NCBI RefSeq assembly: GCF_013167455.1
Contig: NZ_CP038328.1
Length of the DNA: 64,000 nt
Reading direction: 5' to 3' (one strand)
DNA from: Escherichia coli O157:H7
Lineage (GTDB): Bacteria; Pseudomonadota; Gammaproteobacteria; Enterobacterales; Enterobacteriaceae
The position numbers were made by a program. The first letter of the stretch is position 1. Each line of letters begins with the position of its first letter. This document shows positions 57,601 through 60,600 of this stretch, piece by piece.

Positions 57601-60600
57601 CGCCAGAGCGCGGCGCTCGCCGCACTATCGCCGCCAGCCATGCAGCGGCGTAGTGAAGTTTAACGAGGCGATCACCCTGATCGACGCCGGGCGGCACGAT
57701 CTCGCCGATCGCTGGTCGCCCGGATCGTTCCAGCAGTTTTTGCTGACGCACTACCATATGGATCACGTGCAGGGGCTATTCCCGCTGCGCTGGGGCGTGG
57801 GCGATCCGATCCCGGTTTACGGCCCACCGGATGAACAGGGCTGCGACGATCTGTTTAAACATCCGGGCCTGCTTGATTTCAGCCACACGGTGGAACCGTT
57901 TGTGGTGTTTGATTTGCAGGGGTTACAGGTCACACCCCTGCCGCTCAACCACTCAAAACTGACCTTCGGTTATCTGCTGGAAACGGCGCACAGCCGGGTG
58001 GCGTGGCTGTCTGACACCGCTGGCTTGCCGGAAAAAACGCTGAAATTTTTACGCAATAATCAGCCGCAGGTAATGGTGATTGATTGCAGCCACCCGCCGC
58101 GCGAGGATGCACCGCGTAATCACTGTGATTTAAATACCGTGCTTGCGCTGAATCAGGTTATCCGCTCGCCGCGCGTGGTTCTGACCCATATCAGCCACCA
58201 GTTTGATGCGTGGCTGATGGAAAACGCACTGCCGTCGGGGTTTGAGGCGGGGTTTGATGGGATGGAGATTGGGGTGGCGTGATGAGAGGGAATGTGCGTG
58301 CTGGCCCCCTCACCCTAACCCTCTCCCCAGAGGGGCGATGCCTGCCCCATACCCAACATCATTGCCCATACTCATCTTCCATTCTCCGCTCTTCATCTTC
58401 TAGCTGCCGACGCTCCTGATTAAGCTGGTGCTGGCGATCGTCCAGCTGCCTGCGACGATCTTCAAACTGGCGACGGCGGTCGTCATATTGTCTGCGCCGA
58501 TCGTCGCTCACTTCACGCTGCCAGCCGTCGTCGCGCGAATCTTCATAATCTCGCCCACGGTCAGGGTTAGAAGCGTCGTTAATCGCCTGCTGAATATTGC
58601 CAATGGTGTCATCGATAATATCGGCCTGGGCCGGTACGGTGGTCAGCGTGAGCAGGGTGAAAAGAAAAAGCGTGGAGTGGCGTTTCATAAACTCGGCCTC
58701 GCAACAAAGTTAATACAAGGTAGGCAAAGGTGCCTGTTACGAGTAGAGGAGGATTCTCAATTCTCTTGCCCCAGCGCCTGCGCCAACTGCGCACGGGTAA
58801 AGGGTTTGCGCAACAGCGCCACGTCTGGCAGCGCGGGGTTATGGCTGGGGCGTAAATCCTGACCGCTGATGAGTAGCAGCGTCAGGTGCGGGTAAAGTTT
58901 GCGGGCCGCATTGACCACTTCTGCGCCGCTCATGCCGCCGGGGAGCATTAAATCGCTGATAAAAATATCGATTTCTGCTGATGCCGCCAGCAGATCCAGC
59001 GCCTGTTCGCCGCTGCTTGCTTCCAGCGTCAAATAGCCCAGCAGGTGCAACTGTTCGCAGATGGTCTGGCGCACCGCGGCTTCATCTTCCAGCACTAACA
59101 CCAGTTTATCGCCGCTGACAGAAGCCTGTTCTACTGCCGCTGGCGATAGGTTTTTCGCCGCCGTCAGCGCGCGGGGAAGCTGTAATCTGACCGTTGTCCC
59201 CTGCCCCGGCGCGCTTTCAATTTCAACGCGCCCACCGGACTGGCGCACAAAACCATAGACCATCGACAAACCCAGCCCGCTGCCGCTGCCCGTCTGTTTG
59301 GTGGTAAAGAATGGCTCAAATACCTGGCTTTTCACCGCCTGCGACATACCGCAGCCATGATCGATGACCTCCAGTGCCACCATGTCCTGACGCTGCCCAC
59401 TGCTGCGAGTAACGCGCTGATTCCAGGTACGAATTTTGATGATTCCCGTCTGCCCTTCCATCGCGTCACGGGCGTTCATCACCAGGTTGATGATGGCATT
59501 TTCCAGTTGGCTGATGTCAATCCACGCGGGCCACGCCGGAGACTGCGCTTCAATCTCCAGCGCCAGCGTTGCCGGTAAGGAGTGGCGCATTAATTCGCTT
59601 AACTCTTCCAGCAATGTTTTCAGTTCAACGGCTTGCGGATGTAAGGACTGCTTGCGGGAAAACGCCAGCAGTCGTTGTGTCAGTAGCGCCCCACGTTCGG
59701 CAGCTTGCAGCGCCCGCTGTATTCGCGGCGCGTCTGGCGAGTCCGGATTCACCAGCTCCAGGCTGCCAATAATCACCGCCAGCAGATTATTAAAATCATG
59801 GGCCAGCCCGCCCGTCAGTTGCCCGACAGCTTTCAGTTTCTGGCTGTGTAATAGCGCCTCTTCCAACCCCTGCCGCTCAGTTTGGGCAATCTCCATCTGC
59901 GTGGTCTTCTCTTTTAGCAGCCGTGAGGTTCGTTCGAGTGACGCGGTATTGCGGGCAAAAACGTTAAAGGCGCGCGCCAGTTCACCCAACTCATCACGCC
60001 GCTGTAACGCCGGAAAAGTGACGTCCGCTTCGCCGTGCGCCAGGCGGCTCATGGCGCGGGAAATCGCCGTCAGGTTAGTGCCGAGGTTGCGATAGATATA
60101 CCAGCCGGCAAACGCGGTGATCACCACCGCTAACAGGGCGAAAATCATGATCACCCTCTCGCCGGAGCGCAAATCCTGGTAACTTTGCGCCACACGCTGA
60201 CCGGAGAGCGTCGCCACCTGTTCGGCGTAACGGTTGATGTCGCCATTGAGGATCGCCACCAGCGCTTTGATGTGAAACATATACCAGCTGATTGCCAGAT
60301 CGCTTTGCTCCAGAGCGGCAGAAAGCGGCGCGAGTTTACGCATTTCATCATTGAAATCATTGAAATCATTGAGTAACGTATTAACCAATGGCGTATCGCT
60401 GTGGGTCGGCAACGCAGACATTACCCCGACCAGTTGATGAATAATCGCCTGCGGCGCGGGGGTGGCAATAGCGGCAACAATCAGTCGGTTCATCTCGTTA
60501 AGCAAAATATCATCTTGCGCGTGAGTGACTTTTTGCAGATGCCGCAGATAACTTAAGTTTTGATACAGCGAACTTAACAGCGCGTTGCGCTCCAGATGCC

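What the first reader, a model, noticed from the sequence alone, without database searches (positions are those of the whole stretch)
58359..58688. YjdP: secreted protein built from degenerate Asp/Arg/Gln heptads
After a signal peptide, the mature protein is almost entirely charged and shows repeating units (DDRRRQY, DDRRRQF, EDRRRQL, DDRQHQL, NQERRQL), mirrored by near-repeats in the DNA around 58400-58500. That is an unusual composition for a periplasmic protein. It is convergent with the phn operon and sits at the boundary to the kinase/transporter block.
Basis: seen in the sequence. Interest (0 to 1): 0.3.

Follow-up and report, generated by a model that had tools for sequence, protein, structure and literature searches.

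The report
YjdP: exported Asp/Arg heptad-repeat protein
This is the already-annotated E. coli gene yjdP, a small exported protein of unknown function built from "DDRRRQL" seven-residue repeats; the new points are sequence evidence that the Rcs envelope-stress regulator switches it on, and that strains differ in repeat number.

Summary
Window 58359-58688 (-) encodes a 109-aa protein with a typical Sec signal peptide (MKRH / STLFLFTLLTLTTV / PAQA|D). The mature part is 87 aa, 52% charged, with 18 Arg, 0 Lys and 0 Cys. Its 7-residue periodicity is far beyond chance.

The gene is not new. It is 100% identical to E. coli O157:H7 yjdP, RefSeq "DDRRRQL repeat protein YjdP" (NCBIfam NF041443, Pfam PF28054). 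Its function is unknown.

Added here:
1. The family is tiny and was seen only in Enterobacteriaceae. It keeps its place next to the 3' end of phnP even where the phn operon is lost.
2. Alleles differ by whole heptads (95/102/109/116/123 aa) through 21- or 42-nt in-frame indels.
3. AlphaFold models a short amphipathic helix, an acidic disordered linker and a ~53-residue helix. That helix has optimised intrahelical salt bridges and a single Leu/aromatic seam.
4. In nine taxa with unrelated upstream genes there is a conserved RcsB-box-like site, exactly 23 nt, then TAnnnT. This is the geometry of the RcsB-dependent rprA promoter. It fits the published ~10-fold induction of yjdP by a LolCDE inhibitor.

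Best reading: an RcsB-activated periplasmic envelope-stress protein. Its biochemical role is unresolved. Interest is low to moderate.

The parts
58359..58688 (-). yjdP coding sequence (109 codons plus stop)
   Evidence: ORF list. 100% identical to annotated yjdP, WP_000820639.1. NCBIfam NF041443 at 139 bits.
58623..58688 (-). Sec-type signal peptide, residues 1-22 (MKRHSTLFLFTLLTLTTVPAQA), predicted cleavage AQA|D
   Evidence: n/h/c regions read from the sequence. The A-x-A motif followed by Asp is conserved in the family alignment. There is no Cys, so it is not a lipoprotein. Cleavage itself is inferred.
58569..58619 (-). Conserved N-terminal amphipathic helix of the mature protein (IIDDTIGNIQQAINDAS; hydrophobic residues at 3, 7, 10, 14, 17)
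   Evidence: AlphaFold helix at mature residues 2-18. It is near-identical among the Escherichia and Citrobacter sequences in the alignment.
58524..58568 (-). Acidic, predicted-disordered linker (NPDRGRDYEDSRDDG, net charge -3)
   Evidence: pLDDT below 50-66 and no secondary structure. Charge by segment.
58365..58523 (-). Long charged alpha-helix (mature residues 34-86, about 53 residues)
   Evidence: pLDDT 91-97. 30 attractive i/i+3,4 charge pairs against 18.4 +/- 3.2 in shuffles, and 4 repulsive pairs against 17.3 +/- 3.2. All hydrophobic residues lie within a 0-120 degree arc.
58380..58505 (-). Six heptad units: DDRRRQY, DDRRRQF, EDRRRQL, DDRQHQL, NQERRQL, EDEERRM (21 nt each)
   Evidence: Register and lag-7 statistics. 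Family heptad profile [DE][DE]R[RQ]RQ[LYFM]. Indels of 21 and 42 nt between alleles fall here.
58697..58700 (-). Shine-Dalgarno-like GAGG, 8 nt before the ATG
   Evidence: Read from the sequence.
58717..58722 (-). Predicted -10 hexamer TACCTT (TAnnnT; preceded by C as in many sigma-S promoters)
   Evidence: TAnnnT lies exactly 23 nt after the conserved box in 8 taxa and in E. albertii. This is inferred; no transcription start site has been mapped.
58746..58759 (-). RcsB-box-like operator TGAGAATCCTCCTC; its first three bases are the lmvK stop codon
   Evidence: It is the only strongly conserved upstream block across taxa with unrelated upstream genes: score 86/98 against 60.9 +/- 1.3 in shuffles. 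It matches 7 of 8 specified positions of TN(G/A)GAN4TC(T/C)NA (PMC7913699). It has the same N23-to-(-10) geometry as K-12 rprA. The composite pattern occurs once in the window against 0.18 expected. Binding was not tested.

Best explanation
The locus is yjdP, a real, expressed and already-annotated gene of a small family seen only in Enterobacteriaceae.

**Shown here**
- It encodes a 109-aa precursor with a canonical Sec signal peptide.
- The mature 10.9-kDa protein has three parts: a conserved 17-residue amphipathic helix, an acidic flexible linker, and a helix of about 53 residues made of [D/E][D/E]R[R/Q]RQ[L/Y/F/M] heptads.
- The charge order in that helix maximises i to i+3/i+4 Asp/Glu-Arg salt bridges and nearly eliminates like-charge contacts.
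- The seventh position of each heptad forms one narrow hydrophobic seam.
- Alleles gain or lose whole heptads through 21- or 42-nt in-frame indels.

**Inferred**
- The precursor is cleaved after Ala22 and the protein stays in the periplasm.
- The helix is a stiff, salt-bridge-stabilised rod. Through its Leu/aromatic seam and the conserved N-terminal helix it pairs with itself or docks on an envelope partner.
- Transcription is activated directly by phosphorylated RcsB. It would bind a conserved box at about -49 to -36 of a weak promoter, as at rprA. The protein would then be made when the outer membrane, lipoprotein sorting or peptidoglycan is damaged.

**Most likely role (lowest-confidence step):** a small Rcs-regulon periplasmic stress protein that binds or shields envelope components through its Arg-rich surface. 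It is unlikely to be an enzyme or to have anything to do with phosphonate use.
For: **Identity**
- 100% DNA match to annotated yjdP in O157:H7 genomes, and NF041443 at 139 bits.
- Every homologue carries Pfam PF28054.

**Periodicity and structure**
- Lag-7 statistics.
- AlphaFold segments H2-18 and H34-86, with pLDDT above 90 in the long helix.
- Salt-bridge pattern and single seam.
- Heptad position 7 is hydrophobic in 101 of 102 family units, position 5 is Arg in 91 of 102, and position 6 is Gln in 75 of 102.

**Copy number**
- Protein lengths of 95/102/109/116/123 aa.
- A 21-nt deletion and a perfect 42-nt tandem duplication at the DNA level.

**Regulation**
- The conserved box, N23 spacer and TAnnnT occur in nine taxa.
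- The published RcsB box consensus.
- rprA has TGAGACGAATCTGA-N23-TACTAT with the box at -49..-36, and that operator was crystallised with RcsB.
- The composite motif is unique in 64 kb.
- yjdP is induced 9.5- and 10.6-fold by a LolCDE inhibitor, together with osmB, bdm, the wca genes, rcsA, ivy, spy and osmC.

**Independence from phn**
- yjdP is retained without the phn operon in E. albertii, Entomohabitans and Cronobacter.
Against: - No experiment shows export, cleavage, oligomeric state or RcsB binding.
- The box lacks the final A of the consensus in all nine taxa. RcsB read-out is weak, so 7/8 matches are common in any single sequence.
- The LolCDE inhibitor also induces Cpx, sigma-E and RpoS genes, so the RNA-seq alone does not assign the regulator.
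- The generic sigma-70 scan found no promoter.
- Only one hydrophobic position per heptad is a poor core for a classical coiled coil.
- The tandem-fusion model is biased towards a hairpin by the linker, and neither model used an alignment.
- yjdP was not found in the supplementary regulon tables I could search.
- The gene is dispensable in the genome-reduced strain DGF-298, so any role is conditional.
Confidence: 0.6

Rival explanations
1. YjdP is a monomeric single alpha-helix (ER/K-like 'SAH') protein. It would act as a stiff spacer or ruler of adjustable length in the periplasm. It would not oligomerise, and the heptad number would set the rod length (about 1 nm per unit).
For: - The salt-bridge pattern is very strong: 30 attractive against 4 repulsive i/i+3,4 pairs, both extreme relative to shuffles.
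- AlphaFold predicts a continuous helix from a single sequence.
- Heptad copy number does vary between alleles.
Against: - SAH domains have no need for a hydrophobic seam. Here the seventh position is hydrophobic in 101 of 102 units and lies on one face.
- The protein has no anchoring domains at either end for a ruler to measure between, and no lipobox or Cys.
- Asp/Arg with no Lys and little Glu is not the usual SAH composition.
Confidence: 0.2
2. YjdP has a role in phosphonate or phosphate metabolism, because it always sits at the end of the phn operon.
For: - It is convergent and adjacent to phnP in E. coli, Citrobacter, Buttiauxella and two unnamed enterobacterial contigs. In the latter two the stop codons overlap phnP by 4 nt.
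- Arg-rich surfaces bind phosphoryl groups well (general knowledge).
Against: - The gene is kept where phnC-P is absent or decayed: E. albertii has yjcS-yjdP-yjdN-yjdM, Entomohabitans lacks the operon, and Cronobacter has only a phnH remnant.
- The gene is on the opposite strand with its own conserved promoter block, which is RcsB-like; no second conserved block was seen there.
- The family is so young that synteny is expected from descent alone.
Confidence: 0.05
3. In O157:H7, yjdP is functionally tied to the neighbouring island kinase LmvK. It would be co-transcribed with lmvK, or act as a periplasmic modulator of that sensor in the way CpxP acts on CpxA.
For: - yjdP lies 68 nt downstream of lmvK on the same strand, with no convincing terminator between them.
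- In Entomohabitans, an LmvK-like hybrid kinase (74% identical over 387 aa) is also immediately upstream of yjdP.
Against: - Most yjdP genes have unrelated upstream neighbours: rpiB, a transporter, a nitroreductase, yjcS.
- The LmvK/LmvR paper mentions yjdP only as the island border.
- The conserved promoter is kept in O157, so the gene does not depend on read-through.
Confidence: 0.07
4. YjdP is a non-specific, hydrophilin/LEA-like protectant of the periplasm. It would be largely disordered and act by water retention or molecular shielding during osmotic or desiccation stress.
For: - It is extremely hydrophilic (GRAVY -2.25).
- It is co-induced with osmY, osmB, osmC, otsBA, yjbJ and ymdF.
- A possible sigma-S-type C precedes the -10 in several taxa.
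Against: - The strict conservation of R5-Q6-L7 and of the N-terminal helix argues for a specific interface.
- Gly is 4.6%, below the >6% that I recall from memory as the hydrophilin criterion.
- The predicted helix is confident, not disordered.
Confidence: 0.15
5. The ORF is a chance reading frame or an annotation artefact in GC-rich repetitive DNA.
For: An overlapping 144-aa ORF exists on the opposite strand, and there is no hit in the local Pfam copy.
Against: - A curated NCBIfam equivalog and a newer Pfam family both cover it.
- It is conserved across genera at 40-58% identity with the signal peptide and repeat register intact.
- All indels are in frame.
- The RNA is inducible.
Confidence: 0.01

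Closest known systems
NCBIfam NF041443 'DDRRRQL repeat protein YjdP' / Pfam PF28054 (YjdP); E. coli K-12 b4487
   Same: It is this family. The protein is identical to RefSeq WP_000820639.1 and 91% identical to the K-12-type protein. It has the same architecture and the same position next to phnP.
   Different: Nothing in kind. The O157 allele has a diverged 5' end: the upstream 68 nt are 47% identical and codons 1-10 are 60% identical to K-12, against 95% for the rest. It also has a C-terminal Q instead of R.
RcsB-dependent promoter of the small RNA rprA (RcsB box at -49 to -36)
   Same: Both have TGAGA-N4-TC(T/C), then exactly 23 nt, then a TAnnnT -10 hexamer. The rprA operator has been crystallised with RcsB. 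yjdP is induced under an Rcs-activating treatment.
   Different: The yjdP box ends in C or G instead of the consensus A in all taxa. No transcription start mapping, footprint or rcsB-mutant data exist for yjdP.
CpxP / Spy / ZraP periplasmic stress proteins
   Same: These are small, signal-peptide-bearing, all-helical, highly charged periplasmic proteins induced by envelope stress. spy and cpxP are co-induced with yjdP.
   Different: There is no sequence relationship: no LTXXQ-family Pfam hit and no PDB sequence hit beyond coiled-coil noise. YjdP is repeat-built and predicted to be one long helix rather than a helical hairpin cradle.
Charged single alpha-helix (ER/K, SAH) domains
   Same: Dense i to i+4 opposite-charge pairing is predicted to stabilise an isolated helix.
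   Different: YjdP uses Asp/Arg/Gln rather than Glu/Lys/Arg. It has strict 7-residue repeats with a conserved hydrophobic seam, and it is exported to the periplasm.
Leucine zippers and Braun's lipoprotein Lpp (periplasmic heptad coiled coil)
   Same: There is a Leu or aromatic residue every seventh position over about 50 residues, with acidic and basic residues at the flanking positions. The helix length (about 8 nm) is similar to what I recall for Lpp (my own knowledge, not checked here).
   Different: The second core position is Arg/Gln/Glu rather than hydrophobic. There is no lipid anchor and no C-terminal Lys for peptidoglycan attachment (no Lys at all). Oligomeric state is unknown.

Membership tests
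YjdP family (NF041443 / PF28054) | Whole-protein HMM score above the curated cut-off | tested here: met
   139.1 bits against a cut-off of 90, E 4.9e-41, covering profile positions 1-101 of 101. PF28054 is precomputed on all 120 listed homologues. That model is absent from the local Pfam copy.
YjdP family (NF041443 / PF28054) | Signal peptide, then conserved DIIDD..IGNIQQAINDA helix, then DDRRRQL-type heptads | tested here: met
   Alignment of 17 members from Escherichia, Citrobacter, Cronobacter, Buttiauxella, Entomohabitans and unnamed contigs.
Sec (type I signal peptidase) exported proteins | Basic n-region, 10-15-residue hydrophobic h-region, small residues at -3 and -1 | tested here: met
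   MKRH / STLFLFTLLTLTTV (mean KD 1.75) / PAQA|D. The A-x-A is kept across homologues. No signal-peptide predictor was available, and cleavage was not shown.
Bacterial lipoproteins | Lipobox with an invariant Cys at +1 | tested here: not met
   There is no Cys anywhere in the protein.
Canonical coiled coil / leucine zipper | Heptads with hydrophobic residues at both the a and d positions | tested here: not met
   Only position 7 is hydrophobic. The position 3-4 residues away is R/Q/E.
Canonical coiled coil / leucine zipper | Leu (or similar) every seventh residue on one helical face, with helices that pair | tested here: inconclusive
   The seam is confirmed. A linker-fused dimer model resembles antiparallel hairpins, but the method is biased. 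No oligomer measurement exists.
Single alpha-helix (ER/K) domains | Excess of i to i+3/4 opposite-charge pairs and no hydrophobic seam | tested here: inconclusive
   The charge pattern is met: 30 against 18.4 +/- 3.2 attractive pairs and 4 against 17.3 +/- 3.2 repulsive pairs. The 'no seam' part is not met.
Hydrophilins / LEA-like proteins | Gly above 6% and very high hydrophilicity (criterion recalled from Garay-Arroyo et al. 2000, not checked here) | tested here: not met
   GRAVY -2.25, but Gly is 4.6%.
CpxP/Spy/ZraP (LTXXQ) family | Pfam LTXXQ-motif domain | tested here: not met
   No such hit at E <= 1 in Pfam or in the PDB profile search.
RcsB regulon (homodimer-activated promoters) | RcsB box TN(G/A)GAN4TC(T/C)NA just upstream of the -35 region | tested here: met
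   7 of 8 specified positions match, conserved in 9 taxa, at the same distance from the -10 as in rprA. The composite pattern is unique in the window.
RcsB regulon (homodimer-activated promoters) | RcsB binding and rcsB-dependent expression | not testable with these tools
   Support is indirect only: induction of about 10-fold by a LolCDE inhibitor alongside known Rcs genes.
Hypervariable tandem-repeat (contingency / VNTR) loci | Near-identical tandem DNA units prone to frequent slippage | tested here: not met
   Tandem Repeats Finder finds no array and lag-21 DNA identity is 54%. Whole-unit indels exist, but as a few fixed alleles.

The most novel reading that the evidence does not exclude
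YjdP is an Rcs-induced periplasmic rod that feeds back on envelope sensing or architecture. It might bind the periplasmic parts of the Rcs machinery (RcsF/IgaA), or anionic envelope polymers, through its all-arginine face. The strain-specific heptad number (4 to 8 units, about 1 nm each) would tune its reach. The recurrent adjacency to an LmvK-type hybrid kinase would then hint at a CpxP-like sensor-modulator role.
Probability: 0.08. Interest if true: 0.55.

Novelty: already known. Interest (0 to 1): 0.25.

Why it matters
YjdP is one of the many small E. coli 'y-genes' that respond strongly to envelope damage and have no assigned function. The sequence analysis here gives it three testable handles.
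- A predicted direct RcsB operator and promoter, conserved wherever the gene occurs.
- A concrete structural model: a salt-bridged Arg/Asp rod with one Leu seam, plus a conserved docking helix.
- Natural length variants that differ by whole heptads.

If RcsB control is confirmed, one more periplasmic effector joins the Rcs regulon. That regulon governs capsule, biofilm and intrinsic antibiotic tolerance in enteric bacteria. The gene also marks a recombination hot spot. Its upstream side carries the allose operon in K-12, the virulence-linked OI167 island in EHEC, and other cargo elsewhere. None of this changes the fact that the feature as reported is an annotated, ordinary gene.

Tried and rejected
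- **Tandem Repeats Finder** on 58300-58750 found no array, so the repeat is not a recent DNA duplication.
- **Rfam** at E <= 1 on 57800-59200 found nothing.
- **Generic sigma-70 promoter scan** found no site. Its three terminator-like hits lie inside the coding sequence or the 5' region and are not convincing.
- **Folding of the yjdP-phnP spacer as RNA** was no better than shuffles (z = 0.8), so no intrinsic terminator is supported.
- **Local Pfam** gave only sub-threshold noise (PUMA, DUF4140).
- **Other NCBIfam hits** (FlbB, HlyD, RNase Y, PA2816) are far below their cut-offs and reflect charged helices.
- **PDB sequence profile search** gave only coiled-coil noise: GCN4 fusions, M protein, designed peptides.
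- **Foldseek against PDB** gave no match for the fusion model.
- **JGI names** on some homologues ('RNase H-like nuclease', 'Skp family chaperone', 'colicin uptake protein') were rejected as low-complexity mis-assignments.
- **Literature** searches for 'DDRRRQL' and 'b4487' found nothing relevant.
- **Supplementary tables** of four transcriptome or regulon papers held no yjdP entry.
- **CsiR link:** a CsiR ChIP peak is assigned to yjdP in PMC5217608 (3.5-fold repression, 'genic' peak). By my conversion from the older genome version it lies about 390 nt upstream, inside rpiB. I did not pursue it.
- **osmC/bdm as a second positive control:** scanning that region gave only 6/8 matches. osmC has TCGGAATATCCTGC-N23-TAGTCT. 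I could not confirm this as the mapped site, so it is not used as evidence.
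Full report
**What is there**

A 1.4-kb query around it is 100% identical to many E. coli O157:H7 chromosomes. There the gene is annotated yjdP, 'DDRRRQL repeat protein YjdP' (WP_000820639.1). It lies between phnP (convergent) and a hybrid sensor kinase.

The protein scores 139.1 bits against the curated NCBIfam equivalog NF041443, whose cut-off is 90. The local Pfam copy has no model for it. All homologues in the large protein collection carry a precomputed PF28054 'YjdP' hit. The feature is therefore real but already catalogued; its function is not.

**Checking the observation**

The N-terminus has the three regions of a Sec signal peptide: MKRH, a 14-residue hydrophobic core, and PAQA followed by Asp. 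There is no Cys, which excludes a lipoprotein.

The predicted mature protein is 87 aa and 10.9 kDa.
- Composition: 20.7% Asp, 20.7% Arg, 12.6% Gln, 10.3% Glu.
- All 18 basic residues are Arg; there is no Lys.
- Net charge is -9 and GRAVY is -2.25.

Self-comparison gives 27 identities at lag 7 against 9.1 +/- 2.7 in shuffles. None of 20,000 shuffles reached this, even allowing any lag from 2 to 21. Harmonics appear at lags 14 and 21. The result holds when only the charged C-terminal 69 residues are shuffled.

The DNA mirror is weak. Tandem Repeats Finder reports nothing. Lag-21 identity is 54%, and only 6 of 19 identical residue pairs share a codon. The periodicity is therefore maintained at the protein level.

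**Family and context**

An exhaustive HMMER scan of 1.84 billion representative proteins found only 46 clusters at E <= 1e-3. Many of these are fragments or frameshifted calls. Named members come from Escherichia, Shigella, E. albertii, Citrobacter, Cronobacter dublinensis, Buttiauxella, Entomohabitans and a Klebsiella MAG.

Members down to 40% identity keep the same plan:
- a signal peptide with A-x-A;
- an amphipathic 'D-L/I-D..I..I.QAIN.A' helix;
- an Asp-rich linker;
- heptads of consensus [D/E][D/E]R[R/Q]RQ[L/Y/F/M].

Across 102 aligned units, position 7 is hydrophobic in 101, position 5 is Arg in 91, and position 6 is Gln in 75.

The gene is convergent with the 3' end of phnP in E. coli K-12 and O157, Citrobacter farmeri, Buttiauxella and two unnamed contigs. 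It nevertheless survives in three settings where the operon is lost or decayed:
- E. albertii, with the order yjcS-yjdP-yjdN-yjdM;
- Entomohabitans, which lacks the operon;
- Cronobacter, which retains only a phnH remnant.

The upstream side differs in almost every genus. The phn adjacency thus looks like inherited position in a young family, not a functional coupling.

**Heptad number varies**

Homologue lengths cluster at 95, 102, 109, 116 and 123 aa. The 102-aa allele is on at least 1,000 contigs and is indexed in 2,561 blocks of the contig collection. The K-12-type 109-aa cluster has 1,058 member sequences.

At the DNA level, the 102-aa allele has a clean 21-nt deletion. The 123-aa E. albertii allele has a perfect 42-nt tandem duplication. 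Both are in heptad register. This is occasional unequal recombination between diverged units, not a hypermutable repeat.

**Structure**

AlphaFold on the mature sequence alone gives three segments:
- a helix at residues 2-18;
- a low-confidence acidic segment at 19-33;
- one continuous helix at 34-86, with pLDDT 91-97.

In that helix, opposite-charge pairs at i/i+3 and i/i+4 number 30 against 18.4 +/- 3.2 in shuffles (fraction of shuffles reaching this, 0.0004). Like-charge pairs number 4 against 17.3 +/- 3.2 (no shuffle as low). Every hydrophobic residue (W, V, Y, F, L, L, L, M, Y) falls within a 120-degree arc.

This combines a single-alpha-helix style charge pattern with a leucine-zipper style seam. 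The seam has only one hydrophobic position per heptad.

Charge is segregated along the chain: -4 for the N-helix, -3 for the linker, +2 for the first 34 residues of the long helix, and -4 for the tail.

**Regulation, the main addition**

I aligned the 120-150 nt upstream of yjdP from eight taxa whose upstream genes are unrelated: lmvK, rpiB, a 715-aa ORF, a 771-aa ORF, a transporter, a hybrid kinase, a metallo-hydrolase and a nitroreductase. One block stands out: (A/T)TTGAGAATCCTCC(N)CT, 71-73 nt before the ATG. Its score is 86/98 against 60.9 +/- 1.3 (maximum 65) in shuffles. E. albertii has it too.

In every case the block matches TNRGAN4TCY. That is 7 of the 8 specified positions of the RcsB homodimer box TN(G/A)GAN4TC(T/C)NA, defined from crystal structures and EMSA (PMC7913699). 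It also resembles the RcsAB box TaAGaatatTCctA (PMC3950696).

Exactly 23 nt downstream, in all taxa, lies a TAnnnT hexamer (TACCTT in the window). It is preceded by C in four of the eight taxa.

The K-12 rprA promoter is the textbook RcsB-activated promoter with a known start site. It reads TGAGACGAATCTGA-N23-TACTAT, which puts its box at -49 to -36. That operator is the one co-crystallised with RcsB.

The composite pattern occurs once in the 64-kb window, at 58717-58759 (-), against 0.18 expected.

Independently, RNA-seq in E. coli BW25113 showed yjdP rising 9.5- and 10.6-fold (about 10.6 to 100-112 expression units) after LolCDE inhibition. It rose alongside osmB, bdm, the wca/wz capsule genes, rcsA, ivy, mliC, the yjbE-H genes, spy and osmC (PMC5105897).

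Together these make direct RcsB activation the best-supported model, at roughly 0.6-0.7. It remains untested. The treatment also triggers Cpx and RpoS responses, and the box lacks the terminal A.

**What it most likely does**

- Shown: identity, periodicity, architecture, allelic heptad variation, the conserved upstream element, and inducibility.
- Inferred: export and cleavage after Ala22, a stiff salt-bridged rod that pairs or docks through its seam and N-terminal helix, and RcsB control.
- Guess, at about 0.3: it is a small Rcs-regulon periplasmic stress protein that binds or shields envelope components through its arginine face.

It is dispensable in the genome-reduced strain DGF-298.

**Rivals considered**

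- A monomeric single alpha-helix spacer. The conserved seam argues against it.
- A phosphonate-related role. Retention of the gene without phn and the RcsB-like upstream block argue against it.
- A link to the neighbouring LmvK kinase. This is interesting because Entomohabitans also has an LmvK-like kinase directly upstream, 74% identical over 387 aa. Most genomes do not share this arrangement.
- A non-specific hydrophilin-like protectant.
- A spurious ORF, which is refuted.

**Comparison with known things and verdict**

The protein is a member of, and identical to, the YjdP family. By architecture it resembles leucine zippers, ER/K single helices and the stress-induced periplasmic helical proteins CpxP, Spy and ZraP. 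It fails the defining tests of each: only one core position per heptad, presence of a seam, and no LTXXQ domain.

Novelty of the feature as reported: already known. Interest is low to moderate. The gain lies mainly in the testable RcsB-promoter prediction and the heptad-number polymorphism.

Noticed in passing
window 58659-58756 (-), compared with K-12 locus L002: The O157/K-12 homology break is not between genes. The 68 nt upstream of yjdP are 47% identical and codons 1-10 are 60% identical, while codons 11-110 are 95% identical. The segment that differs between OI167-bearing and als-bearing strains therefore includes the yjdP promoter and the start of its signal peptide. The O157 5' allele resembles that of E. 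albertii.
   Followed up: partly
window 58757-58759 (-); L002 about 2298-2300: The stop codons of two unrelated upstream genes (lmvK in O157, rpiB in K-12) are both the TGA inside the conserved TTGAGA of the RcsB-like box. In each case the upstream gene ends exactly at the yjdP operator.
   Followed up: partly
L006 4085-5917 (Entomohabitans teleogrylli): A 610-aa hybrid histidine kinase lies immediately upstream of yjdP, as lmvK does in O157. It is 74% identical to the C-terminal 387 aa of LmvK but has a different sensor part. An OmpR-type regulator lies nearby. The kinase-yjdP adjacency may be older than the EHEC island.
   Followed up: partly
window 58283-58358 (yjdP-phnP spacer): A G-rich hairpin / G-quadruplex repeat (CCCCTCTGGGGAGAGGGTTAGGGTGAGGGGG) fills the spacer. 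It is listed as an 'HPGQ' element between yjdP and phnP in PMC5100583. O157 has one copy, whereas K-12 has an extra 70 nt carrying a second related copy. Its RNA fold is no better than shuffles.
   Followed up: partly
window about 57087-57522 (+), phnO: RefSeq marks phnO as frameshifted in the identical O157 record. The window has a 141-aa GTG-initiated ORF that lacks the normal N-terminus.
   Followed up: no
window about 61132-62652 (+), first gene of the OI167 sugar ABC transporter: It is annotated as a pseudogene with an internal stop in the identical O157 record.
   Followed up: no
L008 6327-6862 (Citrobacter farmeri); L010 4178-4181; L011 4166-4169: In C. farmeri a ParE/Phd toxin-antitoxin pair is inserted between yjdP and phnP, and it overlaps the yjdP stop by 4 nt. 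In two unnamed enterobacterial contigs the convergent yjdP and phnP genes overlap by 4 nt at their stops.
   Followed up: no
L003 1723-5894 (Cronobacter dublinensis): Upstream of yjdP there is a two-gene cassette: a 618-aa HATPase_c_3/HSP90-like protein followed by a 771-aa protein with no Pfam hit. The cassette is flanked by hok/gef genes. I think it may be a defence-type insertion at the same variable site, but I did not test that.
   Followed up: no
window 58428-58862 (+): A 144-aa ORF runs antisense across yjdP and into the lmvK 3' end. It is most likely a by-product of the GC-rich repeat codons and was not examined further.
   Followed up: no
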